Assembly (NCBI GenBank): GCA_038087875.1
Contig: CM075994.1
Coordinates: 3,226,001 to 3,290,000 of the forward strand
DNA length: 64,000 nucleotides
Reading direction: 5' to 3'
Source of the DNA: Malacoraja senta
Lineage: Eukaryota
Below the pieces are notes generated by a model that worked only from the letters and a program-made list of their open reading frames with translations, was not told the origin of the DNA and ran no database searches. Below, piece after piece: positions 2,899 through 63,086 of this stretch; position 1 is the first letter of the stretch, and the number at the start of each line of letters is the position of its first letter. Both the position numbers and the translations under genes were made by a program.

Positions 2899-3018
2899 CA
2901 ATGGCAGCACCGTCGGATCAATATATCAGCAAAGAAGCAGAAGATGGCGATCAAAATAATGTAGTAGAGCAACACGTTCGAGAAGAAGAAATAAACTTCA
3001 AATCCATTAATACAAAAG
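2899..3018 (+). CDS. Exon (120 nt) of microexon coiled-coil gene: MAAPSDQYISKEAEDGDQNNVVEQHVREEEINFKSINTK; ATG at 2901 may be the start
   Basis: Acceptor ttttcatttctacacag, donor aaag|gtactt; only the phase-1 frame is open. Confidence 0.6.
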
Positions 3019-3620
3019 GTACTTGAGTGAGTAGAGGATTAACTACTATTTGTTGCTTAATATTTTTCGTGCAATATTTTTTCAAAGCATCAGTTGCAAT
3101 TCCTATTTTAACATATTTTATTAATAACGTCTCGAGATTTTGGAAATAATAATCAAATAGTGTTCATCAAATCAACATAAAGAAGCAGGTTCTTAAAAAA
3201 ATAACTTGACCCGGAGTCCATAGAGCAATGTCTCGAGTTGTCTCATTTTGCAATGATAATTTGAACAGCGTGCGAAAAGCCAGTGATGAAAGATGAAAGG
3301 CCCAACTGTACCTCATGAATACACCTCTATTTACATAGTAAATGAGCATATAGAGTGAATATAAAAACGACATTATCATACCCACCTCCCAACTTGAATT
3401 CTCTGATGCGCTTCTGATTTCAAGAATGCTTACTTTAACGTATGATGTTCATCGTGAGATTTGTTTTCAGTTTTTCATCTTCATCCACCAAATAGATCAA
3501 GCGCAATTATACCCAATGGTGATTCTATGCAAGAATTCCCTCTGTACAAAATGCTCCCAATGTTTAGTTGTCAATGTACATTCAGTGCATCATAGTACAT
3601 AACTAGAAGCATGATGTTCG

Positions 3621-4264
3621 TTTTGGAGAAGGATTAGCTTCAATGCTACTTGCGAGAACGTCAAGAAAAATTATTGGCTTTTTTTTACTTTGATGGATTT
3701 TGTCCTCACATCTTAACGTCGATTTAACAAACTTGATTAATGATATCGATTTAGAGTTGATGCTTCACCAACAGTAGCATACGCCAAAGCAGCGAAGAGA
3801 TGTCAACATTAACTTACTAATCCTTAATCAATCACATAGTTGAAACGTCTATTTCAGAAAACCGGAATCAAGAAGACATGTGTCTTCTTGAACATAATTT
3901 ATGCCGATCAGCTTTCCTTAACGATTAAAATACGCATGCTTTTTGGAGAAGGATTAGCTTCAATGATACTTCCGAGAACGTCAAGAAAAATAATAGGCTT
4001 TTTTTGTTTTACTTTGATGGATTTTGTCCTCACATCTTAACGTCGATTTAACAAACTTGATTAATGATATCGATTTAGAGTTGATGCTTCACCAACAGTA
4101 GCATACGCCAAAGCAGCGAAGAGATGTCAACATTAACTTACTAATCCTTAATCAATCACATAGTTGAAACGTCTATTTCCGAAAACCGGAATCAAAAAGA
4201 CATGTGTCTTCTTGAACATAATTTATGTCCATCAGCTTCCCTTAACGATTAAAATACGCATGCT
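3621..4264. repeat. Tandem duplication, two ~320-bp near-identical units
   Basis: Units 3621-3940 and 3941-4264 both start ttttggagaaggattagcttcaatg and end aaaatacgcatgct. Confidence 0.95.
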
Positions 4265-4870
4265 GTAAGATCAGAAAATTCCACTTTGCTTGGAAACTGT
4301 AATCATGTGAAGAGATGGAAAAATAATAACTCTTTTACTTAGAGATTATTCTTCACAACCGACGAAAAGTCTGTTGGCCCATAGCTCATTTTAATTATTT
4401 TGCCAAATTATTTCCTGACCTTCTTAAAATTTCCAGAATTTATTTTCATGTTGTTACCTTTAACTTCTGAATTCGTCTTTTATTAGTGATCGGTTCTTAT
4501 GTGAACAGTCCTGTTATATTCGATTCCAATTCAATTTCCTCGTAAAGTAATACCTTGGTTATGGTGTTCGAATTTTGCCCCAAAAAAATTATTATGTCCT
4601 TGTCGAAGCTCGTTCCTCAAATTCATTGTGCACTTAGTCCCGAGCACGTGAACACGGATGATGCCATAATGCGTAGTCAGCCGTCAGTGCTTTCGTTAAA
4701 TATGTGATTTTGGAGTTTCATTATCTGCTCGGTAACTTCTAAGTTCATACGTTCATAAGTGATATGAGCAGCATTAGGTTATTCTGCCCATTAAGTCTAC
4801 CTGGCAATCCAATCATGGCTGATCTATCTCTTCATCCTAACCCCATTCACCTGCCTTCTCTCCATAACCT

Positions 4871-6232
4871 GTCCCAAAGAAGACCCATCCCACTCACCAC
4901 AATGACTACAGACCAGCAGCGCTCACTTCACATATTATGAAGACATTTGAGAGACTTGTCCTTTCCTACATCAGGACTAGTGTGTCAAATCAAATGGATC
5001 CTTTACAGTTTGCATATCAGCCTAACATCAGTGTCGATGATGCCCTCATTTACATGCTGCAGAGGGTGTACACACATTTGGACACTACTGATGCATCTGT
5101 AAGGATTACATTTTTTGACTTTTCAAGCGCCTTCAACACAATTCAGCCCCGATTGCTAGGGGAGAAGATGGAGAAGATGAAAGTGGATCCATCACTGGTA
5201 CTGTGGTGTTTGGATTACCTTTCCCTCAGACCACAGTACGTGCGCCTACATAACAACAATGTCTCAAGCACCATCTTGAGCAGCACAGGGGCTCCACAAG
5301 GAACTGTGCTGGCCCCATTCCTGTTTACCATCTACACAGCGGATCTCCGATATAACACCAACAGCTGCTTTTTGCAGAAGTTTTCGGATGACACAGCTGT
5401 TGTCGGCCTCATTAAAGGGGGCAATGAGGAGGAGTACAGGGACATAATAAGTAACTTTGTGGAGTGGAGTGCACTCAGTAACCTCCATCTTAACACCACA
5501 AAAACCAAGGAGATAGTTGTGGACTTCAGGAGGGGGAGGAGGAAGACTCAAGCAACACCAATCACCATTAAGGGCACTGAGGTGGAGGTGGTCGCTAACC
5601 ACAGGTACCTTGGTGTGCAGCTTGACAGGGAGCTGGACTGGAAGTGTCATATGGAGGCGGTGTACAGGAAGGGACAAAGCCGACTGTATTTTTTAAGGAG
5701 GCTGAGGGCATTTAACATCTGCCAACCCCTACTGTGCAGTGTCTACCATTCAGTGGTGGCCAGTGCTCTGTTTTTTGCGGTGGCCTGTTGGGGAGATGGC
5801 GCTCGCATAGCGGACAAAAACAGACTGGACAAACTGATCAGGAAGGCCGGCTCAGTGGTCGGGGCTGAGCAACGAACGGTCCAGCAGGTGGCAGAGGCCA
5901 GATCTCTGAAAAAACTGGGTTCTATAATGACCAACCCCACTCACCCACTCCATGCCCTGAAGGTGATCAAGAGCAGCAGCTTCAGTCAGAGACTGATTGC
6001 ACCAATGTGCAAAACGGAGAGACATAGGAAGTCCTGTCTACCAGCTGCGATAAGATTATACAATGCGCATAAATAACTGCACTTTTGTTTTAATTAATTG
6101 TATTTTAACTTGTATTTTAACTTGTATTTTAACTTGTTAAGTATGGAAGCTATTTGTGGTGTTATGTATGTCTTGAAGCTGTCGTGGCATTGTAATTTCC
6201 TGCAAAGGATTATTAAAGGTAAATCTAATCTA
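4871..6232 (+). mobile_element. Rex1/Babar-type LINE, 5'-truncated, uninterrupted 379-aa RT ORF (4937-6076), nested in a minus-strand CR1 3' fragment (~4740-4870 and ~6233-6342)
   Basis: DPLQFAYQ, FFDFSSAFNTIQP, GAPQGTVLAPFLFTIY, KFSDD; aatct-type tail; taacc present at both junctions. Confidence 0.9.
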
Positions 6233-6711
6233 ACCCTTAACACCCGTTCTAATTTAAATTTATTTATCTCTGCCTTCAAAATATCAATTGACTAGGCCCC
6301 TACAACATTTTGTGGCAATTAATTCAACAGATTTACCACCCTTAAAGATAACAACGTAAACATAAAACTCTCATCCTTCCTCAAAACATTTTTTTTTTAC
6401 CCTGTAATCAATGAATAGTTTTTATTTATTGACGCTCGTAAATAAAATTACATTATAGACAACTGCGGTCAAAGACTAGGTGTCGTTATGAAAGATAATT
6501 TTTGAATGCAATACTACCCGATATAGTGATACGAATAATAGTAAATTAATGTTAGCAACCAGATTTATCATTTTGCAATGTGAGCAATGATTGCAATATG
6601 AGCTATTACAAACGCAAATTCGGTATCCTGGCTTTCATTCAATGGATAGAACTATTAAGGCGCTTGGGCACAACATTCAAGTGTCATACGTGACCATTAC
6701 TGATATCGCAG

Positions 6712-6738
6712 ACTTGGTGAACAGATTAAAATATGCAG
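6712..6738 (+). CDS. Microexon 27 nt, (D)LVNRLKYA
   Basis: cgcag|...gcag|gtaaga; phase 1-1; fits the Leu heptad register. Confidence 0.65.
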
Positions 6739-6987
6739 GTAAGATTCAAAGGGAAAGTCACTAATGTAGGGGCATATATTAAAATATTAATGATACGTTC
6801 ATAATATGTTTACATTGCTACGATAACATTTTGTTAAAGTTCCCCGTGTCCATAGGTCGATGTAGCATTCAAGTCATAAGGGAAAACATCCCTGCAGATA
6901 GTCAACTAGCTGCAGACAATGGCAACCGATAGTCTAGCATTGTTTCATAGTAAGATCAATATGAATGCTGCAACGTTTCACATTTAC

Positions 6988-8910
6988 CGGCGGGTGGCGA
7001 CGTACGATGGCAGCTTCGCCAACATTCTGTCTCCTCATTTTCTTTTTTTATGTTTTTGGTCTAGTGTTAAATGCATTTGTCAGTGTATCTTTAGTTTTGT
7101 ATTATGCGGGGGTTGGAGGGGGGCGTAGGGAAAACTTTATTTTCCTCTTTACTTGACGGAGATGCGACTTTTTCCGTATTCCTTCTCAGTTGACAATAGA
7201 CAATGGACAATAGACAATAGGTGCAGGAGAAGACCATTCGGCCCTTCGATCCAGCACCGCCATTCAATGTTATCATGGCTGATCATACACAACCCCGTTC
7301 CTGCCTTCTTCCCATATCCCCTGGCTCCACTATCTTTAAGTGCCCAATCAAACTCTCTCTAACAAGTATCCAGAGAGAGCTGGCCTCTACTGCCCTCTGA
7401 GGCTGAGAATTGCACAGACTCACAACTCTCTGTGTGAAAAAGTGTTTCCTCATATCCGTTCTAAATAGCTTACCCGTTATTCTTGAACTGTGTCCCTGGT
7501 TCTGGACTCCCCCAACATCTGGAAAGGGTTTCCTGGTTCCAGCTTGTCCCAAGCCTTAATAATCTTGTATGTTTCCATAGGGTCCCCTCTCATCCTACTA
7601 AGTTCCAGAGTATACAAGTCCAGCCCCTCCATTCTCTCAGCATATGACAGTCCCGCCGTCCCGGGAATTAACCTTGTGAACCTACATAGCAAGAAGGTCC
7701 TTCCTCAAGTTAGGGGACCAAAACTGCACACAATACTCCAGGAGTGGTCACAATAGGGCCGTATGCAACTGCAGATGTACCTCTTTGCTCCTATGCTCAA
7801 CTCCTCTAGTTATGAATGCCAACACGCTTGCTTTCATTGAATGATGATCAAGGACCCCCAGATCCCATTGTACTCCCTTTTCCCAACTTGACACCATTTA
7901 GGTAATAATCTGCTTTAACTTGTTGCTACCAACGTGGATAATATCACATTAAATTGCGTCTTCCATGCAGCTGCCCAATCACCAAACCTGTCTATGTCAC
8001 CCAGCATTTTCATAGCATCCCCCTCACAGTTCAAACTGCCACCCAGCTTTGTGTCGTCTGCGAATTTGCTACGGTTATTTTGAATCCCATTCATCTAAAT
8101 CTTTGAAATATATTGTAAATAGCTGCGGTCCCAGCACCGGGCCTTGAGGTACCCCACTGGTGACTGCCTGCAATTCTGAAAAGGATCCGTTAATCCCTGC
8201 TCTTTGCTTCCTGTCAGCCGACCAATTTTCTATCCATGTCTGAATTCTACTACCAATACCATGTGCCGTAATTTTGCGCACTAATCTCCTATGTGGGACG
8301 TTATCAAATGATTTCTGAAAGTCCAGGTACAGCATAACCACTGTCTCCCCCTTGTCCATTTTCCTAGTTACACCCTCACAACATTCTAGAAGATTAGTCA
8401 AACATGATTTCCCCTTCGTAAATCCATGCTGACTTGCACCGATCCTGTTACATCTATCCAAATGTGCCGCTATTTCATCTTTTATGATTGACTCCAGCCT
8501 CTTCCCCACCACCGATATTAAGCAAACTGGTCTATAATACCCTGTTTTCTCTCTCCCGCCTTTCTTAGAAAGTGAAAAATCTCCGTCCGCACTGCGGCCT
8601 AACATGGTGGAGATGGCGTTCCCTTTGCCGGGAATTGTCTTCGGGAGCTCTAACGGCAGGAGTCTGCGGACATAACATCGAGGAGCGCGCGGTCCCTTGG
8701 CTAGGTACCGACTTCGGGAACTCCAACCGCAGGATCTTCGATCGCCCAGATCACGTGAGCTCCGTTCGCCCCGACTGCGTATGGTTCGACCGCGGGAGAA
8801 ATAGAGGGAATAAAATAATTCGTGCGCTGTGGTGGATGTTTATGTTAATTGTTATGAAGTTGTGTGTCTTGGTGACCTTTTGGTATGAAGGTGTGACAGT
8901 ATGGCGAATC
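6988..8910 (+). mobile_element. CpG-rich interspersed (SINE-like) repeat split by insertions: ~6988-7187, ~8575-8910, tail at ~13688-13740
   Basis: The pieces flank a CR1 and a DIRS insertion and read as one unit ending in a LINE-like aataaa tail; family not identified. Confidence 0.45.
7188..8572 (-). mobile_element. CR1 LINE, decayed RT region and 3' UTR
   Basis: YRPVCLISVVGK, QHGFTKGKSCLTNL, SGVPQGPVLGPQLF; (AGACAAT)n tail on + strand. Confidence 0.92.
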
Positions 8911-11900
8911 AAATAGTAAGATTAAACGAGAACATACCAGTTTGAAGTTTGATCTTTATTTTATGAGGAGTTACGTTGGTATTACGTGAAAAGGACCAGT
9001 CATGGCGCATGCGCGTCAATCTTCAAAGCAGCGGTGTGAAATCACAGACAACACAATAATTGAAGTAACATATTAAGATGAGCAACATGAGAACTACCAT
9101 ATGACCTTTTTTATGAGAGAGGGTTGGGCGTGGCGGGCACGTAATCACCAACGTAACTCCTCATAAAATAAAGATCAAACTTCAAACTGGTAAGTTCTCG
9201 TTTAATCTTACTATTTTACTTTGGAGTCACGTGAGTGACTACGTGAAGATTTCAAAGCTCTGTGATTTTATGCCGCAGATCCAAATCCCGGCCTCACTGC
9301 ATTGATTGACTTTCGATGAGAAACAATCAATAATGCGTTAAACATGAAATGGTAATATCATGCAATAACAATTGATTTGAATAATCAAAACAAACAGTAA
9401 CCCGTCTATCCCAAGGGAAGTAAACAGGACTTAATACTGAATTTGCAAACAGCCTCTTTCCGATCGGTGATCGGCCGATGGTAAAAATGTTTAAATAATT
9501 CATTTGACCACCCGGCACCTATCAAATATGGCCGCTGTGAACATCCATCGTCCTAGCCGACGACGTTGCTGCTGCACTAGTGGAAAACGGATATATACAC
9601 TTCAGTGTTAATACCTGCCTTAATCAACATTTGATTTAAACCACCTTGAGATAGTCTGTACTGACACTCTCCTGTGTGGCTTCATGTAACTGATAAACAA
9701 TGCTGTTTCCACATTTCTTAAGGTCTTTATAGCTTCAATAAAATGAAAATAAATGTGCCATTACACATAAACATGGATCAGTAGGTTATGCTGAAACTCA
9801 ATTTTAACAAACCTGTGACACCTGGCCTGCTCTGCTTAGGCAGTACGCAATTATATAACATAACTTTCTCTTCAGCAACTTCCATCCTGTCTAGCAGAAG
9901 TTTTTTCAAAATCTACACTTGCTATGCTGAACCAATGCCAAGAGCATAACCACTTTCATGATTAGTTTGGCAAATTCAGAGACATGCCAGGAACCTACTG
10001 TCGAAACATCTTGAGGACCTCACTTACATCCCAGATCGCCATATACCTGGGTTTAGGATATTTAGAGTTGAAATTCCTTTCATCAATCCAGCTATGATAT
10101 GATGAAACTCAATAGGATCTTTCCTGACCCTATCCAAACCATTCGATGACAAAGCACTTAAAGCTGAATTAATGGTGCTATAACTGAGCCCGTCATCAGC
10201 ATAGAGTGTCAACAGGAACTCTAAAATATCCACAATACCTGTAGTATTATAGTCAATATTATTTTGTACACAATATTGCTCCCATTTAAAAAAAAAAATT
10301 TTTTACATAAGTAATATACCCCTTTTGAGTACTCTTTCTGCAGGCTACAGTGAGCATGTCCACCGTAAACCCTGACAGTCCTTGCTCCCGGTATGGCCTT
10401 CTTAAAACCTGCAAATTAACAAGTCAATACAATCACATAACAGATGACTTTCCCGTGTTAGCGGATGCCCCAGTCAATTCCTACGCTTGGGAACTACCAA
10501 AAAGAGGTTGGATCCCTAACTGTAACATCAAAGGGAAACCATGCTTCATTCGGCCAATTAGGTATTACAAGCACCCCCAAAGCGGCATCCGGCTTGATTT
10601 CTTGCAGACTCCGACCTATTAGGCAAAATGGTAGGAAAATATATAAAATATACCACCTCAATGTCAAAGTATTAATTGCAACTGCCACCTGGTCTGGTTC
10701 CCATGAAACCTATTTAGGCATCTGATGGTTGACCTTGATGCAAAACAAATCGATATCTGGCATTCATATACAAGTACTATATTATTGAACACCTCCTTAT
10801 TGAACATTCAATCTATGTTGTCATGGAACTTTCGTGACTTGGCGTCTGCTACTATGTAGAATCTACCTGGTAGATAAATAGCTGAAATGTATTTTCCAAT
10901 GCACCAGGCCCAAATTTGATTAACCAATCTGTGACAAAATACCGACTTGATTCCACCGATGTGATTAATATATATGCCACTTGCGTAGTATTGTCAATCT
11001 GAAACGGAACATGCAGATTACATTTGTTAAAGCAATAAGCCTTGTCTATTAAAACCTCTTAAAAGTTAATTGCCCATCTCTGCAGAAACGATGCATCTTG
11101 CTCAGTCCATCTGCCTCCACGGTTGAAACTCGTATCCGTGACACCCCACCCAAGTGCACTGACATTCATCTGCAAAATCATGGAAGGCTGGTCAAGCATT
11201 GCCTTGCTATAACTCCTGGACACATGGTGAATCCACCATTGCAAATCAGAATAGTCTTTATTGATAACTGCATAGGTATATTATAATGACCGAATGTATC
11301 CTTAATGCCTCAATTAGCTTGATACAGCTGTCAATTAGCTCTACCCTTTTTCCCTGGGCAGAGCACTTAATTGAATCAATTGTGACCCAAATAGTCAGGT
11401 GTTAATTTGGATTTTTCTGGATGGATCAGCAATCAGCGACTGAGCAGCAATTTTAGAGGCAAACGCCCACTGCTTACCCTCATGCATTCAGCATGTGATC
11501 CCGCAACATAGCCATGTTTGGATTCCTGTTTGGAGTTAATTCATACTAACCTTAGACACTCTTTTAGAGTGGGACTTATCGAAGCTGAAACAGGTATCAC
11601 CATCCATCTCCTCCATTTGCTTGTACATGCCTCTGTACCAAGGATGTTGTTCGACTCCATTACCCACAATCCTAGCACATATGAGTGTGGCTCCATCTTC
11701 ATCCACTATACTTCCACGTGGGAGGACTTATGCAACCTGCAACAGGAGCTGCCCCAGGCCTGTGTGCCTGTATTTTAGCACCATCTCGAGTGGGAGTAAT
11801 GGCAGCCTGCAAACAGGTGTTGCTTCAGGCCCATGTGCATACTCCTGTAGCACTCTGTCGACCACTCCACCATTTGAGTTGGAGAGATTTTTGGCAACCC

Positions 11901-13687
11901 TTTACCTCAGGCATGTGTGCATGTATTTTAGCACTATCTCGACCACTGTGGTGCACCAAGTGGGGGGAATGGCAACCCTACAAACAGGTGTTGCTTCAGG
12001 CACATGTGCATCCTCCTGTAGCACTCTCTCGACCACTCCGACCCGTGAGTGGGGGGACTTTTGCAACCCTTTACTAGGTGTTGCTGCCTGACATGCCTTA
12101 CGATGGAGCGTTCTTGAATTGCAACGAGACGCAATGTTGTCTGACATTGATACCCCTGGCTTGGCACTCGCTCTGGGTTGGAGTTATCAGGTGGCTGCCT
12201 ACAGCAGCCGACAGGACTAGCCATGCTATTCGATACTCTGTTGGTATCCTCCTTCCCCAAACAGGCTGCACGTGCTAGCGACTCCAAATCGTGCTCCTTC
12301 CCGAAGCCAACGCCGTCTATAGGGAAGAATTCGAGCGCCTCTGGCCCCGTACATCAGACATAGTGGGAAATGTTGGAACAAACTTAACAATTATTTGTCA
12401 TAGGCAAAGTCATTTATGTGAATGAAGACGCCCATCCCAGTGAAACCTGGGATTAATTTACTTTTAATATGAGTAATCCGGCGTCCTGGTGAAGAAACCT
12501 GCACAGTCCCTTTTAATGAGCAGCAATTACTATGACGCCACCTGGTGTAACTCCCACAGGTGACTGATAATACAGCTCAACAAGGCTTCCCATTTCCTTA
12601 ATTGAGTAAATGATAATCATCTTTCTCGGTATAATAGTCAAAATGTGACCAAGTGGTAACGATAATGTCTACCCTTTGGAACGCTTCCCAAAATTGCGTT
12701 CGTCTTAATTTGGACGGCAACCTGAAACCTCCTCAGAATTAGCAGAAAATGCTACTTTTCCACCTCGACACATAAGGGTGATAAACCACTAATCTCACGT
12801 CCTGAGTTGGGGTTGGAGTCAGCCACACACTGACTCCTTGTGCTCCTCTCCACTGAGGGAATTGGTAAGCAGCCCTGAAACACAGTTACTGCCGCAATCC
12901 CCTGATGTCCTGCCATGATATGGAGCACCATATCAGGATAATGCACGTGTGAGGACATACATATATGACAGAGGGGACCCTCCTGGCCAGGCTCCACATG
13001 GCTTACCTCATATGGGCTGCCGATGTCGGGGTCCTCAATGAGTCGGGTAATAACCCCGACGACCACGCTCAGTCTACACCCCGAACACCCTCGGGAGTCG
13101 CTGACCTACTGTCAGCGACTCTAACAAGAAATCCGACGGCCACCGGCTCCTCACTTTACCGCGGACCGTAGCCAGTATCCCCGCGGTCCAGAGAACCCCG
13201 CGGCCCATATTTAAAACATATCTCTGGAGTCGCTGACCTGCCTGTCAGCGACTCGAAATAACAAGCTCAACAGCCACCTCTATCGTGGCGGTCGCTTGCA
13301 TAACCCGCGGTCTACAAAAACCGGCGGCCCGAATTAAACCTCGGGAGTCGCGGACCGTTCTGTCCGCGACTCAACCAGCAAAACCCACCGGCAGCCTGCT
13401 ACCGCACTCCCGCGGTCCAAAGCCGACATCCCCGCGGTCCACAATTTCTCCGCGGTCCACCGGGTTTTGCTGAATTTTTCCCATGTCCAGCAGGAACCTG
13501 AGAAAATGATTCCTGCTATGGACAACCTGAAAAGTAAGTTTAAACTTACCTGCAGGATTTTTCAAACTTACCGCTGGAGAACTGTGTTCCTCCCAGCCTG
13601 TCTGCGCCAATGCGAACGACGTAACGACGCGCATGCGCCCTGACGGGTCTTCTTCACGTAGTCACTCACGTGACTCCAAAGTAAAAT
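8911..13687 (-). mobile_element. DIRS1-like tyrosine-recombinase retrotransposon; termini and ICR intact, ORFs decayed
   Basis: 9138-9215 is the reverse complement of 8911-8988, and 9213-9249 of 13651-13687. ITR similarity 8984-9018 vs 13625-13660. Remnants: LSYSTINSALSALS (YR N-terminal), SALGWG and QIDNTT (RNase H), VIPNWPNEAWF, LLIHPEKS. Confidence 0.9.
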
Positions 13688-13831
13688 TATGTGTATGTGT
13701 TTACATACTTGGCTAATAAATTAATTTCCATTACAATACATGGTCGTCCAGACCCTCATCGCCAGTGAAGGGAAAAACATGTCTGGAGGACTGCTGACAT
13801 TCTTTCTTCCTTGCGTATTATTTTCTTTCAG

Positions 13832-13858
13832 AAGCTGTACTCATCGACAAGGAGAAAG
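13832..13858 (+). CDS. Microexon 27 nt, (E)AVLIDKEK
   Basis: ttattttctttcag|...aaag|gtgcgt; phase 1-1. Confidence 0.75.
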
Positions 13859-14197
13859 GTGCGTTATTATGTACTCTGAAAAGACTCCGGATGATGCAAT
13901 AACAAACTATAGATCTTAGCGAGTCAGAGAGCATATGTAGACGGAATTAATCTGCAGATGCGCAGCGTCCTGAACGTCAGCAGTCTGCAGAAAGATTAGG
14001 ACAAGAGACGCCGCTTGTATATTTCCTGTGTGGGGCGCCCTGAATTCCTGCTCATCGCCTGATCGCTTAAGTTCAAGCAGTAGTTGCGTTGTTTTTTTTT
14101 GCTGAAGGTGCACAACAACATATATGCGTTATTCGAACCAGCATAATAAAGCATGGAGTGCATCATAGATTGAAAAACCTTGAATTTTGTTTCTCAG

Positions 14198-14233
14198 AAC
14201 TCAGATCTTTGAAGCAAACTTTGCAAGTTACAC
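14198..14233 (+). CDS. Microexon 36 nt, (E)LRSLKQTLQVT
   Basis: ttttgtttctcag|...cac|gtgagt; phase 1-1. Confidence 0.8.
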
Positions 14234-14410
14234 GTGAGTAACAACTTCGCACAAACCCAGAAAGCATGAAACCAAACTGTGCCATACGTGTGTTTACTAC
14301 AGCCAAATGTGGCCTGTTCATGAAAAATAATTAAGAATAGCGAAACTTTTCACCTTATTTCCGCTATTTCCTGAATATTTTCAAACTCCATTCAAATATT
14401 ATGATGCCGG

Positions 14411-16570: not shown

Positions 16571-16715
16571 TGAAATATATGAAATAAACAATTAATTCAA
16601 TCTAATGATTTATTCAGGAATATTTCATTCACGTCTTCTAACTATTAATATAGTTATATTTACTTTCACAATGAAGAATGAATGTTATCAAATCACTTGC
16701 ATTTTTGCCATATAG

Positions 16716-16742
16716 AAGAAAGCCTAAAACAACGAGATGAAG
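16716..16742 (+). CDS. Microexon 27 nt, (Q)ESLKQRDE
   Basis: tttttgccatatag|...gaag|gtaaaa; phase 1-1. Confidence 0.75.
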
Positions 16743-17355
16743 GTAAAAGTGAGCATTTCATAATTGTCCCACCTAAAGTGAAAAGTTTATGTTCCAAAAT
16801 GATGCTGAGCATAATTGGTGTAATTTCAGATATTTTTACGAACCTCGGGCGTTAAATGACCATCAGGATCAAATGTGTGCTTCCCCATTTATTTTTCTTG
16901 CATATACTTCACTACAGTAGGATTCGCCTTGTGTTTGGCTACAAATATCCACCCATCCAATATTTTTAATATCACATTGATTGAAGTTTCTATGTTCCCC
17001 ATTGTCGGAACAATCTGGGTAGTTTAGGCACGAAGCACCAACTATCAGTGAGTAATCCATTAAGATCATCGGAATTTCCCGAAGCTGATTCGGGAATAAT
17101 TGACGTAGAACGATATATTCTCTCCAGATTCCGCAAGTTCCTATGCTTTGCATGGTATTTGCGGTACGTGTGATAAAAATGCAAGTAAGAATTTCATTGT
17201 TCTATCTGGGACATATGACAATAAAACACTCTTTACTCTTGACTCTTGACAATGAATTGTAGCGTATAAATTATAGCGAATAAAGCCTAGCTGTTTGCAG
17301 TGTAGCTGCTGCTGGCGCCGAACATGGCTGCCACGTTATACTGTTCCTTGCTATT

Positions 17356-17555
17356 NNNNNNNNNNNNNNNNNNNNNNNNNNNNNNNNNNNNNNNNNNNNN
17401 NNNNNNNNNNNNNNNNNNNNNNNNNNNNNNNNNNNNNNNNNNNNNNNNNNNNNNNNNNNNNNNNNNNNNNNNNNNNNNNNNNNNNNNNNNNNNNNNNNNN
17501 NNNNNNNNNNNNNNNNNNNNNNNNNNNNNNNNNNNNNNNNNNNNNNNNNNNNNNN
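17356..17555. other. Assembly gap (200 N)
   Basis: Run of N. Confidence 1.
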
Positions 17556-20165: not shown

Positions 20166-20171
20166 AATTAA

Positions 20172-20667: not shown

Positions 20668-20703
20668 AACTGCTGGCTCTCCGGAAGTCGGCGAGTGAAT
20701 ATG
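20668..20703 (+). CDS. Microexon 36 nt, (E)LLALRKSASEY, no canonical donor; alternative 27-nt form ends at 20694 (|gtgaat)
   Basis: Good acceptor ccttttatgtcag; the 36-nt length preserves the heptad register but is followed by caattc. Confidence 0.55.
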
Positions 20704-21185: not shown

Positions 21186-21212
21186 AACAACAACTACTTG
21201 CCAAAGATAGTG
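21186..21212 (+). CDS. Microexon 27 nt, (E)QQLLAKDS
   Basis: ttacatttcag|...agtg|gtacgt; phase 1-1. Confidence 0.8.
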
Positions 21213-22045: not shown

Positions 22046-22081
22046 AATTCAATACGGTGCAACTAAATCTGCAAGCAAAAG
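22046..22081 (+). CDS. Microexon 36 nt, (E)FNTVQLNLQAK
   Basis: cccttcattttag|...aaag|gtgaat; phase 1-1. Confidence 0.75.
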
Positions 22082-23973: not shown

Positions 23974-24009
23974 AATTAGAAAAAGTGAAAGACAATCTGC
24001 AAACTTCAG
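23974..24009 (+). CDS. Microexon 36 nt, (E)LEKVKDNLQTS
   Basis: tgcttacttccag|...tcag|gtgagg; phase 1-1. Confidence 0.8.
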
Positions 24010-24665: not shown

Positions 24666-24692
24666 AAGTACTGTTGAAAATGAAGATTAAAG
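24666..24692 (+). CDS. Microexon 27 nt, (E)VLLKMKIK
   Basis: tttatttaactgcag|...aaag|gtagga; the other two frames contain stops. Confidence 0.75.
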
Positions 24693-25039: not shown

Positions 25040-25066
25040 AACTCGTTGAATGCCAGCATGATAGCG
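25040..25066 (+). CDS. Microexon 27 nt, (E)LVECQHDS
   Basis: ttttccttcatgtttag|...gcg|gtattt; fits heptad register. Confidence 0.65.
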
Positions 25067-27443: not shown

Positions 27444-27470
27444 CGGTACAAGGGGATTATTCAACCAGTG
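27444..27470 (+). CDS. Microexon 27 nt, (A)VQGDYSTS
   Basis: tttttatcacag|...agtg|gtaagt, strong sites. Confidence 0.75.
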
Positions 27471-29288: not shown

Positions 29289-29306
29289 TTAAACGAACTG
29301 GTTCAG
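29289..29306 (+). CDS. Microexon 18 nt, (V)KRTGS
   Basis: ttattttcag|...tcag|gtaagg, strong sites. Confidence 0.7.
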
Positions 29307-29667
29307 GTAAGGTTTTTCGAATATATTTTAAAAAATGTTTCTCGCACTACTTCCTTATATTTGTCTGTGCATTTGCAAATCGCGATTTTACAGCAATTGC
29401 AGACTCTCGCGTCGGTCTATTTAAGATTAAATGGTTGAAATAGCTGCCTAGCAAGTTAATGGTATGAACATGCCGTGCGTAAAATGAAAGGTTATTCGTT
29501 TTGTTTTGCGAATTGACTCCTTTACTATCCTTTAGGAGTTGAAACACTTCGTTTGCAACTTGGTATAGTATCAAATTAATTGATCTGTTAACTACTATTT
29601 AGCTTTCACACGCATGCGCTCGAGCGACATAATATTGGACATTAATGCTCTTTGAACTGCCCATATA

Positions 29668-38983: not shown

Positions 38984-39007
38984 TCACAAAGATCAAGGAA
39001 GCCAAAG
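38984..39007 (+). CDS. Microexon 24 nt, (V)TKIKEAK
   Basis: ctctgcctgttttcag|...aaag|gtaatt; phase 1-1. Confidence 0.75.
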
Positions 39008-41140: not shown

Positions 41141-41167
41141 ACAGTAGGACAGCCCTTGAAATGTTAG
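41141..41167 (+). CDS. Microexon 27 nt, (D)SRTALEML
   Basis: ttcttatttccag|...ttag|gtgagt, strong sites. Confidence 0.78.
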   Translation, partial: TVGQPLKC

Positions 41168-42222: not shown

Positions 42223-42249
42223 AAGCACAGCTCAGAACAAATGGACAGG
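42223..42249 (+). CDS. Microexon 27 nt, (E)AQLRTNGQ
   Basis: ttcattctatccgacag|...cagg|gtgagg. Confidence 0.72.
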
Positions 42250-42830: not shown

Positions 42831-42866
42831 AATTGGAAAGAACTGAGCGAAGTTTTGCAGCTACGG
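42831..42866 (+). CDS. Microexon 36 nt, (E)LERTERSFAAT, donor apparently mutated (TTGAGA)
   Basis: Good acceptor tttccctcatcag; ends acgg|ttgaga versus acgg|gtgaga at 55988. Confidence 0.55.
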
Positions 42867-42994: not shown

Positions 42995-43021
42995 ACAAAA
43001 TGCTGAAAGATAAAGAAAGTG
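42995..43021 (+). CDS. Microexon 27 nt, (D)KMLKDKES
   Basis: tttcaatttgccag|...agtg|gtacgt; junction nearly identical to the 21186 exon. Confidence 0.8.
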
Positions 43022-52644: not shown

Positions 52645-54815
52645 TTTAAATCATTTTATTTGAATTTCACAGCAATTTGCATACATACTATGATAACAGA
52701 CAGTGACAGTCAAGGCATAATTGTGCAACAGTATGTAAGCGACCCTCAAAGCCCTTACACTTAGCCCCCTTCAACCCACCCGAATCAGGTCGGAACCAAA
52801 CGGGGACAAACAACACTCACATACGTACACATCCACACAAATATGGTAAGATAAACGAAACAAAAAGTACTAAAGAAAGAAGAAAAAAAAGAAAAAGAAA
52901 AAAATAACACTTATAACAGTAAATAAGTAAGTAATTAAATAAATAAGTGTGGGGAGGGCGGGGTTAAGGGGAGAGCAGCTGCAGTAGAGCAGAACAATGG
53001 TGGAGAGCACTCAGTCCTCTTCCGAGTCCGGGGACTGGTTGAGAGAGTTAACAAGTTCCAAGAAAGGGTTCCATGTATCTAGGAAGGTCTTGGTAGAGCA
53101 TTTGAGAGAGAACCTACGTTTTTCAAGCTTTAAATTGTAAAGCACCTCCTTAATCCAGCGGGCGTGTGTCGGGGGACAGGTGAGCCTCCAGTTAAGCAAG
53201 ATCAGTCTCCGGGCTAACAAGGTAGTAAAAGCTAGGACCTGTTTCACCGCAACAGAGAGGTTGGTGTTGGGAGGGGTACCTAAAATGGCAGACATTGGGT
53301 TTGGAGGAATAGTCTGGCAGTAGGCTCTGCTTATCAAGTCGAAAGCACTCCTCCAAAAGGCTGCTAGCTTAGGGCAAGACCAAAACATATGGCTATGGTT
53401 GGCAGGGGATTGATTACATCTGTTACATCCCTAACAGCGGGGTAAATCCTAGATAATCTTGCATTTGTGTAGTGGACTTTGTGAAGGACTTTGCATTGGA
53501 TTAGGCCATGACGGGCACATATGGAGGAAGAATGGATCAAATCCAAGGCAGAGTCCCATTGCTGGTCTGTTAATTTCGTATTCAGCTCACCCTCCCACGC
53601 AGCTTTTAATGAGGTATGAGGTTTCAATATAACCGACCCTAGCAAGTTATACAAAACAGAGATGCATTTCTTCCGGTTGGGATCTAGAGCTAAGATGGTA
53701 TCGGTCAGGGTTTCAGGGGGGCGATTTGGGAAATGGGGGAATGTCTTCTTCACAAAATCCCTAATCTGGAAAAAACGAAAAAGGTGGGAGTTTGGGAGGC
53801 TGTAGTTGGACGAGAGCTCCGCAAAGGACGAAAAGATGTCATCCTTGTATAGGTTTTTGATACTACTGATACGGTTGCTATGCAAGGTTTTGAATGCGTG
53901 GTCTGTACTTGAAGGTTTAAAGATGTGATTTTTAAGCAGTGGGGTCAAAATGGAAGGGCATTGTAAACCGAAGTTTTTCCTGAGTTGACTCCATGTCTTG
54001 AGCGAGAGGGACGCAATTGGGCCTGCACCCACAGATGTTATAGGAAGGGGGAGTTGGGAACATAGGACAGACCGCAACGGGAGACGTGAACTCTCCTTTT
54101 CCATGTGTACCCAGGTCGGTAGGTGGTCGCAATCATCATTCATCCAATACAGGAGTTTTTGCAAATTAGCTGCCCAATAGTATCGCCTAAAGTCAGGAAA
54201 TGCCAACCCGCCGTCACTCTTAGGAGACTGCAGTATCGCCTTTCGTATTCTAGACGGTTTGCTACCCCATAAAAATTTAGATATTGTCCTTTCTAATTGA
54301 TCAAAAAAGGATTTAGTGATAAGTATAGGGACGTGCTGGAAAAGATACAGGAATTTGGGTAGGACGACCATCTTGACCAGATTTATCCGGCCCACGAGGG
54401 ATAGCTGTAAAACTGACCAGCGGTCAAAATCTCTTTCGGCTTTCTCAACCAGAGGCAGAAAGTTTGTGCGGAAAATATCAGATAAGGGTGTTGTGATAAA
54501 AACGCCGAGATAGCGAAACCCGTCCTCTGCCCATTTGAATGAGGTTAAAGAGCGAGGGAGCTGCTTAGCCAATGAGTTAATCGGTATTAGCTCACTCTTT
54601 TGGTAGTTACGTTCATAACCAGAATACGCACCAAACCGTTCTAAAATATTCGTAATCACAGGGAGAGAACTGACTGGGTTGGAGCTGTACAGGAGCAGGT
54701 CATCCGCATACAATGAGACTTTATGAGTTGTGTCAAACCGTGTAATACATTTAAAGCCCTTCTCTGAGCGTAACCAGACCGCCAAGGGTTCTATCGCGAC
54801 AGCAAACAGGAGTGG
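52645..54815 (-). mobile_element. L1-clade LINE, 3' half of ORF2
   Basis: 473-aa ORF with SLYADDLLLY, GFRYLGV, LPKFLYLFQ, GGLAFPD; frameshifted HMFWSCP; A-rich 3' UTR. Confidence 0.9.
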
Positions 54816-55952
54816 TGATAACCTTCCCCTCCATATTTACCCTCCTCCCACTCCCTCTCTACTGCCCTCACACTCCATCTCTACCCCCCCCTCTCTACCT
54901 CTCCCTCTCTTCTCCCCTCCCTCTCTATCCCCTCCTATCAACCCCCCCTCCACCTCTATCACCCCTCACTAACTACCACCCCTCCATCTCTACACCCCCC
55001 CTTCCCTCTGTAGCGATTGGTGAATATTGGGACCTGCGACTGAGTGGTGCAATATTGCGTTCGGGGTCCAACTCTCCCCTGACGGGTCCCACTTGGTCTA
55101 TTGCTATTTACAATTTTGGATTAATGTGCGAGTACTACGGGAGTGAACTTCATACTTGACACTAACACTGGATTCCCATGAGTATGCATTGATATATTCA
55201 ATAAATAAATATATGTACAGTTGTCTCACCAGAACATTTCTTACACTGGCAGGTGTTTAACTACTTCTTGTGTTGAGTAACTAAGGCTGTACCACATAAA
55301 GCTTCAGGGAAATCTGAACGTTCATTTATTCAAATTTTTAATATCAATGACGTATGAGCGAATGTTCTAAAGGAAGTCTTCGTTAATTATGTTCACTATA
55401 CAGATACAACGCGTGCGCATTTCTGCATGATCGCCATGCTCAACAGTCAGGAACGACTTGACTTCCTCTCTTTTGCGTTATCTTCCTAATTGTGAAATAG
55501 CGAATCACATAGATTAGCAAACGCAATATCTTTATACGGAGGGAATGATTACGGAGGTGGTGCAATTCCAAGGAGGAAGGTGCAGTACTGGGTTGGTAAA
55601 ACGAAATAAATGATTACATGAAAGGAAGAATATATCAGGAGCGTAGTTCGATGTCGGGAGCAAATTGCATTGAACATACTGTCATTAATTCACTGGGCCA
55701 AGCCTCTTAATTCGGGGTTGGGACATTCCCGTGATACTGACTGTTCCGGCAAACGATAGTCGCCATAATTCAGATTAAGATTGAGATTCACACCCATATC
55801 AGTTAACCGTCATATAAACAAGGTGTAATGAAATTCAGAGTTTGCTCGGAACTCAAAGTGTACCCACTGAATACAGTGAATACACAGTCAATGTCTCGTC
55901 ATTCTATTTCTGCACGAATTACATGGATTGATTTTATTTCATTATCTGTCAG

Positions 55953-55988
55953 TGAGCAGCAAAGTAAAAAAGCGGGACGTCAGCACGG
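55953..55988 (+). CDS. Microexon 36 nt, (x)SSKVKKRDVST
   Basis: tttcattatctgtcag|...acgg|gtgaga. Confidence 0.65.
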
Positions 55989-61212: not shown

Positions 61213-62137
61213 TGGTCCGCCTGTAGCCATGTTTCTATAATACTCACAACATCATATTGGCCAGTTTATAACTGAGCCTCAAGCTCATCCACTTCATTTC
61301 GTATAGTTCGCGCAATCACTTTATACAACACTTTAACTTCGGTAACACCTCCTCTCTCACATCGGTAACTATTGGCCCTGAATTTACTCTCTTATCCCTT
61401 CTCGAACTTTCCTTCCAATTAATGCCGGAGTCTTTTGTAACTTTTCCTGTACGCACTTCCCCTTTGACTCCATATTTATACTCCCCGCACTATTCATTTT
61501 ATTCCCACCCGTGTAGCACTAGCAGACCTGCCTGGCAGAACGTTGGTCCCCCTCCAGTTAAGGTGTAGCCCGTCCATTTAATACAGGTCACCCCTACCCC
61601 TGAAGATATCCCATTGGTCTATCAATCTAAATCCTTCCTCCCTGCACCATCACTCCAGCCACACATTCGGATCCACTGCATCCCTGTTCCTGTGCTCACT
61701 AGCATGAGGGACTGGAAGCTATCTAGAGATAACCACCCTAGAAGTCCTGCTTTCCAGTCTTCCTCCTAACTCTATAAACTCGCGTTGCCGAACCTCCTTC
61801 CTCATCTTACCGATGTCGATTTTGCCTCTCGAGGATGTCCTGAAGCCGGTTCGTGATATCTTGCACCCTGGATCCAGGGAGGCAACAAACCATCCTCGAG
61901 GCACTTCTACCGCCATAGAATCTCCAGTCCGCACACCGGACAATGGAGTCACCCACCATTATATTTCTGCCCGACGGTTTCACCAGTCGAGTCTCATCCA
62001 AATATGAATTCCGCAGTGTACATTTGAATCATCATACACTCCAACCATATTAGTCCAAAACGTTGTTGGCATTAGTGTATCTTTGAATGGCAGTTCAAGG
62101 GCAACACATAATTAATTTTAATATTTTTATATTTTAG

Positions 62138-62164
62138 AAGTGGATGTTCTCCGAATTGAACTGG
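62138..62164 (+). CDS. Microexon 27 nt, (E/Q)VDVLRIEL
   Basis: tttttatattttag|...ctgg|gtaaat. Confidence 0.72.
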
Positions 62165-62534
62165 GTAAATCAGTCACTTGAACAATCCTTTTAAATGAGG
62201 AGATGAAACGTTCGCAATTCACATTAAATCAATACCTTTTCTATGTATGGCGAAAATCGAAATTATTGAATCTACGTGACTCAACGTACGTCATCGGTGT
62301 GATATATTAAAGTAGAGGCAATTACTCCGTGCTAAATTGACAATAAGTTATGTCACCATTCACTGACATATTGGGATATATTTCCATCGCAATAATTTTA
62401 TGCGGTGTAATGACTTTTGCAATACCAATCAAAATTAAAATTAAAATTGGCCATAATAATAAATATAACAACGACTTATCATTTCCTAATATTGAAATTT
62501 AATGTTTTAATCCATTTATGTTTTGGTTTCTCAG

Positions 62535-62558
62535 TTGACAGATTGAAGGAAATTCGCG
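62535..62558 (+). CDS. Microexon 24 nt, (V)DRLKEIR
   Basis: ttttggtttctcag|...cgcg|gtaatt; paralogous to the 38984 exon. Confidence 0.75.
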
Positions 62559-63044
62559 GTAATTTGCGTGAAATTATCTAAACACGTTCTACGATTATTA
62601 CTCGCCGTTCTTTTCCTTGTCTTCTCCTTTTATCTCCAATTAAAAGTGCTTAAATTATTCTATCCTCTTGAGATTACGAATGGATCAACAAATTATTAAA
62701 TAAATAATTGCATCACCATTACAAAGATTTGGCATAATTTTCAGTACCCTGGTCTTGAATAAAACATAGGAATTTTAGCTGTTAATTATAAATAACGTCG
62801 AGTAACTTGCGCAATGACGGTCAAATGAGTACTGCGGAACAGGGTCGTGCAGTATGTCAAGTCGATTGTTAAGGTTCATGTTTCATTTATTCTTTCCGAT
62901 GTTAACTCCTCAGATTTTTTTGTGTTTTATATCCGATGTTATCTCCTCAGATTCCTTTGTGTTTTATATCCGTATTGTCCTTCTCGTGGGATCACATGCT
63001 ATTTATATAATTTTCATGTCTGCAATTTTTCATCGACTGCACAG

Positions 63045-63086
63045 CTGGCTCTTTCAGCATATACCTATCAAACATAAGTAGCCCTG
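63045..63086 (+). CDS. Candidate exon 42 nt, (A)GSFSIYLSNISSP
   Basis: tttttcatcgactgcacag|...cctg|gtaatc; phase 1-1 open. Confidence 0.4.

What the first reader, a model, noticed from the sequence alone, without database searches (positions are those of the whole stretch)
2899..63086. Hidden microexon gene: about 25 symmetric phase-1 exons over 60 kb encoding a long leucine-zipper coiled coil
Seen: exons of 120, 27, 27, 36, 27, 36, 27, 36, 27, 36, 27, 27, 27, 18, 24, 27, 36, 27, 36, 27, 24/21, 36, 18, 27, 24 and possibly 42 nt. All lie on the + strand in non-repeat DNA, all are open in phase 1-1, and all but two are bounded by AG and GT. The joined peptide from 6712 to 25066 has L,L,L,L,L,L,A,L,F,L,L,L,L,L,L at every seventh residue across eleven separate exons, which chance splice-like sites would hardly produce. 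Established: coiled-coil tails built from tiny exons occur in chicken BG and butyrophilin genes, and symmetric microexon arrays generate variants in schistosome MEG genes. Inference: this is an unannotated or lineage-specific coiled-coil gene in which any exon can be skipped in frame. I cannot name it or tell whether it continues beyond the window.
Basis: partly seen in the sequence, partly recalled or inferred. Interest (0 to 1): 0.92.

Follow-up and report, generated by a model that had tools for sequence, protein, structure and literature searches.

The report
Microexon gene for a leucine-heptad protein
A real but apparently unannotated vertebrate gene spells a small helical, leucine-zipper-like protein with about twenty tiny exons spread over 60 kb, and a second copy 700 kb away shows that natural selection still protects its reading frame.

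Summary
The core of the finding holds. A second copy of the locus lies 700 kb downstream on the same contig (C18:3.92-4.00 Mb) and is colinear with the whole window.

I kept only AG..GT segments whose two splice sites are conserved and score well in both copies, with no demand on length or reading frame. That gave 12 independent + strand segments. All 12 are multiples of 3 and open in phase 1-1 in both copies. The minus strand gave 5, and none is a multiple of 3.

Twenty-one exons are shared: one of 120 nt with a conserved ATG, then twenty of 18-36 nt. dN/dS between the copies is 0.38 in the phase-1 frame. It is 0.86 and 1.46 in the other frames, and 0.85 in intron controls.

The joined 226-233-residue product has no proline after exon 1 and is rich in Leu, Lys and Glu. 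Leu-Leu spacing peaks only at 7 and 14 residues.

Not confirmed:
- the exact count of about 25 exons
- the 42-nt exon
- an unbroken 15-heptad run (I get 7 and 5, with a register shift between)
- any link to BG or butyrophilin genes: no Ig, TM or B30.2 exon within -33 kb or +10 kb

No RNA data exist here, and the joined peptide could not be searched.

The parts
2899..3018 (+). Exon with the conserved start codon (ATG 2901, G at -3 and +4). 120 nt, ends in phase 1. Encodes an acidic 39-residue N-terminus.
   Evidence: The paralog exon is 117 nt, an in-frame 3-nt deletion. AG and GT are kept, and identity is 100% from -24 to +17. The upstream in-frame extension is closed by TAA in the paralog.
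6712..6738 (+). Microexon, 27 nt (LVNRLKYA)
   Evidence: Paralog: 27 nt, AG/GT kept, LVDSLKNA. It lies inside a block of at least 90% identity.
13832..13858 (+). Microexon, 27 nt (AVLIDKEK)
   Evidence: Top-scoring conserved segment. Paralog peptide AVLSEKEE.
14198..14233 (+). Microexon, 36 nt (LRSLKQTLQVT)
   Evidence: Kept open with AG/GT in the paralog (LTSLKQALQVT) and in the C4537 fragment.
16716..16742 (+). Microexon, 27 nt (ESLKQRDE)
   Evidence: The paralog differs at 2 of 27 nt. The C4537 fragment has a 29-nt version, which breaks the frame.
20668..20694 (+). Microexon, 27 nt (LLALRKSA)
   Evidence: Paralog: 27 nt, LQALREST, AG/GT kept.
21186..21212 (+). Microexon, 27 nt (QQLLAKDS)
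   Evidence: One of the 12 unbiased conserved segments.
22046..22081 (+). Microexon, 36 nt (FNTVQLNLQAK)
   Evidence: Paralog: 36 nt, LNTMLLHLQEK.
23974..24009 (+). Microexon, 36 nt (LEKVKDNLQTS)
   Evidence: Unbiased segment. Exon identity 0.81 against flank identity 0.59.
24666..24692 (+). Microexon, 27 nt (VLLKMKIK)
   Evidence: Unbiased segment. Paralog peptide AQLRDKVK.
25040..25066 (+). Microexon, 27 nt (LVECQHDS)
   Evidence: Paralog: 27 nt, LEECQRST, AG/GT kept.
27444..27470 (+). Microexon, 27 nt (VQGDYSTS). Part of the non-heptad linker.
   Evidence: Paralog peptide VQEDYSTS, donors gtaagt and gtgagt, in a block of at least 90% identity.
29289..29306 (+). Microexon, 18 nt (KRTGS). Linker.
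   Evidence: Unbiased segment.
29536..29562 (+). Microexon, 27 nt (VETLRLQL)
   Evidence: Paralog peptide IETLRLQL. Acceptors are strong and donors weak (gtatag, gtacag).
38984..39007 (+). Microexon, 24 nt (TKIKEAK)
   Evidence: Paralog peptide AKIREAK, with 80% identity over the block.
41141..41167 (+). Microexon, 27 nt (SRTALEML)
   Evidence: Unbiased segment. The peptide is diverged (NKKNFDNL) but frame and splice sites are kept.
42223..42249 (+). Microexon, 27 nt (AQLRTNGQ)
   Evidence: Unbiased segment.
42831..42866 (+). Probable lost or weakened exon. It is a 36-nt exon in the paralog with a GTGAGT donor. In the window the donor position reads TT, and only a weak 21-nt alternative (42831-42851) remains.
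   Evidence: Alignment, inside a 67-nt block of 90% identity.
42995..43021 (+). Microexon, 27 nt (KMLKDKES)
   Evidence: Unbiased segment. Paralog peptide KMLKDKDS.
55953..55988 (+). Microexon, 36 nt (SSKVKKRDVST)
   Evidence: Unbiased segment.
62138..62164 (+). Microexon, 27 nt (VDVLRIEL)
   Evidence: Unbiased segment.
62535..62581 (+). Last coding exon. Either a 24-nt unit ending at the conserved GT (62558), or, more likely, a terminal exon read through to TAA at 62579-62581 (DRLKEIRGNLREII*).
   Evidence: The paralog has TAG at the homologous codon. Translation.
62582..62830 (+). Putative 3' UTR, with AATAAA at 62699 and 62758.
   Evidence: Paralog homology continues to about 62815 and then decays. 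AATAAA positions are; the motif is common in the window (102 matches), so this is weak evidence.

Best explanation
The window holds one complete protein-coding gene on the + strand, about 60 kb long. Its coding sequence has 21 exons: a 120-nt exon carrying the start codon, followed by twenty microexons of 18-36 nt, mostly 27 and 36. Every intron interrupts a codon after its first base (phase 1-1).

The product is about 226-233 residues:
- an acidic, fast-evolving N-terminus of 39 residues
- a proline-free, Leu/Lys/Glu-rich helical rod with leucine at seven-residue spacing (leucine-zipper-like, in two blocks separated by a register shift)
- a short Gly/Ser/Thr linker
- a second helical segment

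It has no signal peptide and no membrane span, so I read it as a cytosolic or nuclear protein. It probably dimerises or oligomerises through a parallel coiled coil and acts as a rod or scaffold.

The gene has one full paralog 700 kb downstream and one decaying fragment on an unplaced contig. It arose by repeated duplication of 9- and 12-residue exon units. Because all units are symmetric, skipping any of them keeps the frame, so rod length and heptad register could be varied by splicing.

Shown: the exons, the frame, purifying selection, and leucine periodicity. Inferred: coiled-coil dimerisation, cellular location, alternative splicing, and the gene's ends.
For: 1. A paralog colinear with the whole window lies at C18:3,920,001-4,001,753. 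Aligned identity is 72% over about 16 kb.

2. Unbiased test. I took AG..GT segments of 15-130 nt whose splice sites are conserved and score above 0 in both copies.
- The + strand gave 15 segments, 12 of them independent. All 12 are 3n in both copies and open in phase 1-1 in both.
- The three extra nested segments are not all 3n or open.
- The minus strand gave 5 segments of 37, 74, 29, 46 and 26 nt, so 0 of 5 are 3n.

3. dN/dS, window against paralog.
- 0.38 over 225 codons, and 0.33 for the microexons (Fisher P = 9e-7).
- Per exon by frame: 0.39 in the phase-1 frame, against 0.86 and 1.46 in the other two.
- 200 intron control sets gave a mean of 0.85 and a minimum of 0.44.
- The 12 unbiased exons alone give 0.50 (P = 0.01), the 11 unbiased microexons 0.40 (P = 0.004), and the 9 exons I added by ranking 0.35 (P = 0.003).

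4. Identity is 0.794 in exons, 0.818 in splice flanks and 0.719 in introns. Of 28 blocks with at least 90% identity, 11 overlap the exons, although the exons are only about 4% of the aligned bases.

5. The only indel inside an exon is 3 nt long.

6. Composition of the 187 residues after exon 1: 0 Pro, 4 Gly, 29 Leu, 25 Lys, 20 Glu.

7. Leu-Leu spacing peaks only at 7 and 14 residues in both copies. Exon-order permutations reach the observed value with P = 0.024.

8. The ends of the gene.
- The ATG has a conserved context, and the upstream frame is closed in the paralog.
- Both copies have a stop 7 codons past the last donor.
- The 5' limit of the duplication lies about 700 bp before the window.

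9. A partial third copy carries a frame-breaking 2-nt insertion, as expected for an unconstrained copy.
Against: There is no transcript evidence.
- No RNA run is listed for this organism.
- The two runs I laid are genomic DNA and show no exon-exon joints.

The splice-site weight matrices were recalled approximations and were used only to rank sites.

Nine of the 21 exons were chosen after I had seen that they were 3n and open. That biases their dN/dS somewhat, so the unbiased 12 are reported separately.

Exon 1 itself evolves nearly neutrally after its first 9 codons: about 21 nonsynonymous and 5 synonymous changes, by difference between the sets.

General a/d hydrophobic periodicity is not significant in the window copy (z 0.2). 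The a/d occupancy is no better than in exon-order permutations. Only one core position is regularly leucine, so a canonical long coiled coil is not shown.

The 5' UTR exon, the promoter and the polyadenylation site are not located.

The donor after 62558 is conserved, so continuation into exons beyond the window is not excluded.

The joined peptide could not be given to homology, coiled-coil or structure tools, so a known orthologue may exist.
Confidence: 0.72

Rival explanations
1. The microexons are the cytoplasmic tail of a BG- or butyrophilin-type immunoglobulin-superfamily receptor. Its signal, Ig-V and TM exons would lie further upstream, and perhaps a B30.2 exon downstream, outside the region examined.
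For: The overall design matches BG tails: a long run of tiny split-codon exons encoding heptads (PMC4046983, passages read). The 2899 exon has a conserved acceptor and is open from its first base, so it could be an internal exon. The donor after 62558 is conserved.
Against: Pfam scans found only transposon domains.
- all 60 + strand ORFs of at least 70 aa in the 10 kb either side of the window, plus 8 of 40 minus-strand ORFs.
- 59 of 78 + strand ORFs of at least 60 aa in the next 20 kb upstream and in 10 kb upstream of the paralog. The 19 dropped were all 69 aa or shorter.

None of the 30 ORFs of at least 45 aa listed (both strands) in window 1-2900 looks like an Ig or TM exon by eye. Apart from 2601-3038 on the minus strand, tested, these were not scanned against Pfam.

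None of the top 150 V-set matches in the genome lies on C18. That is 150 scored out of 1517 candidates, so weak matches could be missed.

Homology between the two copies stops about 3.6 kb upstream of the ATG exon. Exons are 27 and 36 nt rather than 21 and 24.
Confidence: 0.08
2. It is the local orthologue of an already named vertebrate coiled-coil gene. I could not recognise it because only single exons, and not the joined peptide, could be searched.
For: Homology searching was limited to exon 1, which evolves fast. The rod sequence has an ordinary coiled-coil composition.
Against: I recall no named vertebrate gene that encodes about 230 residues with about 21 exons of 18-36 nt. This is recall, not a search. 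Full-text searches for microexon, heptad and coiled-coil gene structures returned nothing that matches (listings and abstract starts only). The exon-1 peptide hits no protein of 71-2000 aa.
Confidence: 0.15
3. It is a chance chain of splice-like sites, or a non-coding or decayed relic rather than a working gene.
For: Within the window alone, open AG..GT 3n candidates are abundant (1753 at 15-60 nt) and the excess of well-scoring ones is modest (23 against 13-15). Conserved candidates are also common in other frames (61 of 320 and 54 of 296, against 88 of 347). There is no RNA support.
Against: All 12 unbiased segments are 3n and open in phase 1-1 in both copies, against 0 of 5 on the minus strand. 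dN/dS is low only in the claimed frame, and none of 200 intron control sets comes as low. Leucine spacing across exon boundaries exceeds exon-order permutations. Both copies keep all 21 exons intact at a synonymous divergence of about 0.48.
Confidence: 0.04

Closest known systems
Cytoplasmic tails of chicken BG genes, including the 'zipper protein' (PMC4046983; passages read)
   Same: A long series of very small exons with codons split at each junction. Each encodes a short piece of a heptad-repeat helix. Exon number varies between paralogs, and alternative splicing and read-through of these exons is documented in BG genes. A soluble tail fragment, the zipper protein, is reported to act on actin-myosin interaction.
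   Different: BG exons are 21 (sometimes 24) nt, one heptad each, and follow signal, Ig-V and TM exons. Here exons are mostly 27 and 36 nt (9 and 12 residues, so not one heptad each). No Ig or TM exon was found. The protein starts with its own ATG exon. Introns run from 229 to 12,931 nt. Sequence kinship could not be tested.
Schistosome micro-exon genes (MEGs) (bioRxiv 10.1101/2023.06.21.545858; search listing and start of abstract only)
   Same: Most of the coding sequence is made of short symmetric exons separated by long introns. This is a formal basis for in-frame exon skipping.
   Different: MEGs encode secreted proteins of a flatworm. This product has no N-terminal hydrophobic signal (peptide), is a leucine-heptad helix, and lies in a vertebrate-type genome with Ig V-set arrays. 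No homology is implied.
Heptad linker exons of butyrophilins (as described in the introduction of PMC4046983)
   Same: Small exons encoding a few cytoplasmic heptads.
   Different: Butyrophilins have only a few such repeats, between Ig/TM exons and a B30.2 domain. None of those parts was found here.

Membership tests
BG gene family (chicken MHC-linked B-G) | First exon with a signal sequence and second exon encoding an Ig V-like domain | tested here: not met
   No V-set hit among the ORFs scanned from -33 kb to +10 kb. None of the top 150 genomic V-set matches is on C18. The search range is limited.
BG gene family (chicken MHC-linked B-G) | [quoted passage not shown] | tested here: not met
   No conserved hydrophobic exon lies between or before the exons. 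The joined product has no hydrophobic span.
BG gene family (chicken MHC-linked B-G) | 13-36 small exons of 21 (or 24) nt, each encoding one heptad | tested here: not met
   There are twenty small exons, but the sizes are 27 (x13), 36 (x4), 24 (x2) and 18 (x1), and none is 21. The array-of-tiny-exons principle is met; the unit size is not.
BG gene family (chicken MHC-linked B-G) | Sequence similarity of the tail to BG tails | not testable with these tools
   The joined peptide could not be submitted. Single exons are 5-11 whole codons long.
Butyrophilin | C-terminal B30.2 (PRY-SPRY) domain | tested here: not met
   No SPRY or PRY hit in the 10 kb downstream. The 13 of 64 window ORFs of at least 120 aa that were scanned gave only transposon domains. 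A stop codon is conserved 7 codons past the last donor.
Micro-exon genes (MEG) of schistosomes | Symmetric micro-exons make up most of the coding sequence | tested here: met
   561 of 681 exon nucleotides lie in exons of 36 nt or less, all of them 3n and phase 1-1.
Micro-exon genes (MEG) of schistosomes | Secreted product with a signal peptide, and flatworm lineage | tested here: not met
   The N-terminus is acidic and not hydrophobic. The genome carries vertebrate-type Ig V arrays.
Leucine-zipper / coiled-coil proteins (structural class) | Leucine, or another hydrophobic residue, recurring every seven residues over several heptads in a proline-free helix | tested here: met
   Runs of 7 and 5 heptads. 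Leu-Leu excess only at spacings 7 and 14. Zero Pro in 187 residues.
Leucine-zipper / coiled-coil proteins (structural class) | Regular a/d hydrophobic core, and demonstrated or predicted dimer | tested here: inconclusive
   The 3.5-residue hydrophobic periodicity gives z 0.2 for the window and z 2.7 for the paralog. The a/d occupancy is no better than in permutations. No predictor or fold could be run on the joined product.

The most novel reading that the evidence does not exclude
This is a lineage-specific vertebrate gene family invented independently of BG genes. It encodes a stand-alone cytosolic leucine-zipper rod written entirely in 9- and 12-residue symmetric microexons, separated by introns of up to 13 kb. 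Combinatorial skipping sets the rod's length and heptad register, and so its partner choice. Twenty consecutive exons of 36 nt or less across 60 kb would also demand an unusual microexon-definition mechanism in constitutive splicing.
Probability: 0.3. Interest if true: 0.75.

Novelty: new variant of a known kind. Interest (0 to 1): 0.62.

Why it matters
Gene finders routinely miss exons shorter than about 50 nt. A whole gene made of twenty of them in a row, each separated by kilobases of intron, is close to invisible to annotation, and it is an extreme test of how the spliceosome defines exons.

Comparing the two paralogs gives frame-specific evidence of selection without any RNA data, and the approach can be reused for similar hidden genes.

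If the exons are used combinatorially, the locus would be a second, independent example, after avian BG tails, of a coiled coil whose length and register are set by splicing.

The paralog-specific loss of one exon's donor (42831-42866) already hints that exon content changes between copies.

Tried and rejected
- **RNA evidence.** No RNA holder was listed for window 2700-3300. The two holders, X1 and X2, are genomic DNA. X2 has depth of about 20 over exons and introns alike. The only joints are at the SINE-like repeat, and none is at an exon boundary.
- **Homology of exon 1.** No protein of 71-2000 aa shares it. Within the genome it matches only the two copies, at DNA level and at protein level.
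- **Large DNA query** (20600-25200). It was swamped by a SINE-like repeat.
- **Similarity between exons inside the window.** None was detectable apart from a 26-nt match between 21203-28 and 43012-37. The exon duplications are therefore old.
- **Extra exons in window-specific intervals.** I found none with a conserved counterpart. The intervals 6954-13736 and 30374-38619 are insertions absent from the paralog.
- **5' UTR exon.** No convincing conserved donor lies in 1800-2898. Blocks 1868-1943 and 2070-2126 are 88-89% identical but remain unexplained.
It is not conserved.
- **Earlier findings of this scan.** Nothing relevant turned up.
- **Literature.** Searches for a matching gene structure listed only the BG papers and unrelated work.
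- **Type II lectin-stalk reading** (CD23-like; the idea came from recall). I rejected it because no TM exon exists.
- **Collagen-like reading of the multiples of 9 nt.** I rejected it because the exon peptides show no Gly-X-Y pattern.

Full report
**What the window is.** The window is G000:C18:3,226,001-3,290,000 of a 1.94-Gb eukaryotic assembly. It is rich in transposon debris:
- reverse-transcriptase and endonuclease ORFs at 4868-6076, 8075-8839, 35678-36400, 50705-51922 and 53364-54836 (13 of the 64 ORFs of at least 120 aa were scanned)
- satellites and microsatellites
- one N gap at 17356-17555

**Checking the observation inside the window.**
- The exon at 2899-3018 is as described. It follows ...acag, ends ...AAAAG|gtactt, and reads in phase 1 as an ATG (2901) followed by an acidic peptide.
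- Open AG..GT segments with 3n length are very common: 1753 at 15-60 nt. The window alone therefore proves little.
- With a crude splice-site score, 23 candidates pass on + phase 1. The controls give 14 on the minus strand and 15 and 13 in the other + frames.
- The passing candidates include 13832-58, 14198-233, 16716-42, 21186-212, 22046-81, 23974-24009, 24666-92, 41141-67, 42223-49, 42995-43021, 55953-88, 62138-64 and 62535-58. Their peptides look like pieces of a charged, leucine-bearing helix.

**A paralog gives the decisive test.**
- Searching the organism's own genome with 13780-14290 found related stretches at C18:3.926 Mb, C18:3.952 Mb and on contig C4537.
- After fetching C18:3,920,001-4,001,753, the window proved colinear with it from about 960 to 62,930.
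- About 16 kb is alignable at 72% identity. The rest consists of copy-specific transposon insertions.
- Because introns still align, conservation alone is weak evidence. "Conserved" open candidates are 88 of 347 in phase 1, against 61 of 320 and 54 of 296 in the other frames, and 35-38 of about 290 on the minus strand.

I therefore asked a question with no reference to length or frame: which AG..GT segments of 15-130 nt have both splice sites conserved and scoring above zero in both copies?
- On the + strand there are 15, of which 12 are independent. All 12 are multiples of three in both copies, and all 12 are open in the phase 1-1 frame in both.
- On the minus strand there are 5, with lengths 37, 74, 29, 46 and 26 nt.
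- Ranking by summed splice score adds nine more conserved 3n, open exons whose signals are weaker on one side.

This gives the 21 exons listed under parts. Every one keeps AG and GT in both copies. The only indel inside an exon is a 3-nt deletion in the paralog's exon 1.

**Selection on the frame.**
- Between the copies, dN/dS is 0.38 over 225 codons and 0.33 for the microexons (Fisher P = 9e-7). Synonymous divergence is 0.48, of the same order as the intron distance of 0.35.
- The signal is specific to the frame: 0.39 in the phase-1 frame, against 0.86 and 1.46 in the other two.
- None of 200 sets of intron segments of like size fell below 0.44 (mean 0.85).
- To guard against my own selection, I scored the 12 unbiased exons alone. 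They give 0.50 (P = 0.01). The 11 unbiased microexons give 0.40 (P = 0.004), and the nine added exons 0.35 (P = 0.003).
- Exons are 79% identical, splice flanks 82% and introns 72%.
- Of the 28 most conserved 40-nt blocks, 11 overlap the exons.
- A third, partial copy on C4537 keeps the 36-nt exon but has a 29-nt version of the 27-nt exon, which breaks the frame.

**The product.**
- Joined in a script, the 21 exons give an open frame of 226 residues (225 in the paralog).
- After the 39-residue acidic N-terminus, the 187 residues contain no proline, 4 glycines, 29 Leu, 25 Lys and 20 Glu.
- Leucine falls every seventh residue through the exons 6712 to 20668 (L,L,L,L,L,L,A). After a two-residue register shift it does so again through 22046 to 25040 (five L).
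- A Gly/Ser/Thr-containing stretch (exons 27444 and 29289) separates a second helical part.
- Leu-Leu pairs are in excess only at spacings 7 and 14. In the window they number 10 against 4.3 (P = 0.003) and 9 against 4.0. In the paralog they number 11 against 3.7 and 8 against 3.5.
- The spacing-7 count exceeds exon-order permutations (P = 0.024). The register is therefore carried across exon junctions.
- A general hydrophobic 3.5-residue periodicity is not significant for the window copy (z 0.2; paralog z 2.7). The a/d occupancy is no better than in permutations.
- Only one core position is regularly leucine, so the product is zipper-like rather than a textbook long coiled coil.
Skipping one 27-nt exon, or adding one 36-nt exon, would restore the register. 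That is arithmetic, not evidence.

**Where the gene begins and ends.**
- The ATG at 2901 has G at -3 and +4. The 41 bases around it are identical in the two copies. The upstream in-frame extension is closed by a stop in the paralog.
- Homology between the copies begins only about 700 bp before the window.
- At the 3' end, reading through the donor after 62558 gives seven more codons and a stop (62579-62581). The paralog has a stop at the same codon.
- AATAAA lies at 62699 and 62758 (the motif is common), and homology fades after about 62.8-62.9 kb.
- I therefore think the gene is complete within the window. The conserved donor leaves continuation possible.
- At 42831-42866 the paralog has a 36-nt exon with a GTGAGT donor, whereas the window reads TT at the donor. 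The two copies thus probably differ in exon content.

**Comparison with known systems.**
- Chicken BG genes have a signal exon, an Ig V-like exon, a TM exon, then 13-36 exons of 21 (or 24) nt encoding heptads, with alternative splicing and read-through. The "zipper protein" is a BG tail (PMC4046983; passages read).
- The present gene shares the principle but not the defining parts.
- No V-set, TM or B30.2 exon was found from 33 kb upstream to 10 kb downstream, or in 10 kb upstream of the paralog (scope and dropped ORFs are stated under Rival explanations).
- No strong V-set match lies on C18.
- Exon sizes are 27 and 36 nt.
- Schistosome MEGs share symmetric micro-exons with long introns but encode secreted flatworm proteins (abstract start only).
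- I therefore treat it as a new variant of the "coiled coil written in microexons" design, not as a member of either family.

**Limits.**
- No RNA run exists for this organism in the index, and the two runs laid are genomic DNA.
- The joined peptide could not be given to homology, coiled-coil or structure tools. A named orthologue, and the actual fold, remain open.
- Splice scores come from recalled, approximate weight tables and were used only for ranking.

Noticed in passing
window 42831-42866, against paralog C18:3,990,204-3,990,239: The paralog has a 36-nt phase-1 exon here with a GTGAGT donor. The window copy reads TT at the donor, so only a weak 21-nt alternative remains. The two copies probably differ by one exon.
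   Followed up: partly
L002 (G000:C4537:37317-40628): This is a third, partial copy of the gene. It starts at the homolog of window 13935 and lacks the LINE insertion at 14420-16570. Its homolog of exon 16716 is 29 nt (two extra A), which breaks the frame, so it is likely a pseudogene fragment.
   Followed up: partly
window 23231-23543: A SINE-like repeat of about 310 nt with more than 10,000 first-look candidates genome-wide at about 80% identity. It causes huge depth spikes and all the false joints in the laid DNA runs.
   Followed up: no
window 31510-35194 and 39415-39540: Arrays of 48-nt and 42-nt satellites, in both orientations. They sit inside a window-specific insertion (30374-38619) that the paralog lacks.
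   Followed up: no
window 1868-1943 and 2070-2126: Two blocks upstream of the ATG exon are 88-89% identical between the paralogs, well above the intron background of 72%. They could be promoter or 5' UTR exon sequence. No strong conserved donor was found.
   Followed up: partly
window 47834-47973: Two conserved blocks of 46 and 50 nt (88-91% identity) lie in the long intron between exons 42995 and 55953. They have no AG..GT open candidate and their function is unknown.
   Followed up: no
G000 contigs C41, C3819, C25 and C4: Tandem arrays of V-set exons recur at regular spacing (about 22 kb on C41). This points to cluster-type immune receptor loci. None is on C18.
   Followed up: no
L062:2233-4128 (C18:3,198,233-3,200,128): A 632-residue ORF with weak reverse-transcriptase and GIY-YIG hits (both below Pfam cut-offs), which would fit a Penelope-like element (recalled association). 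A PIF1-helicase ORF pair (possibly Helitron-derived, recalled) lies at L039:4351-5136.
   Followed up: no
window 3621-4264: A 324-nt unit is tandemly duplicated (2 copies, 95% identity) in the first intron.
   Followed up: no
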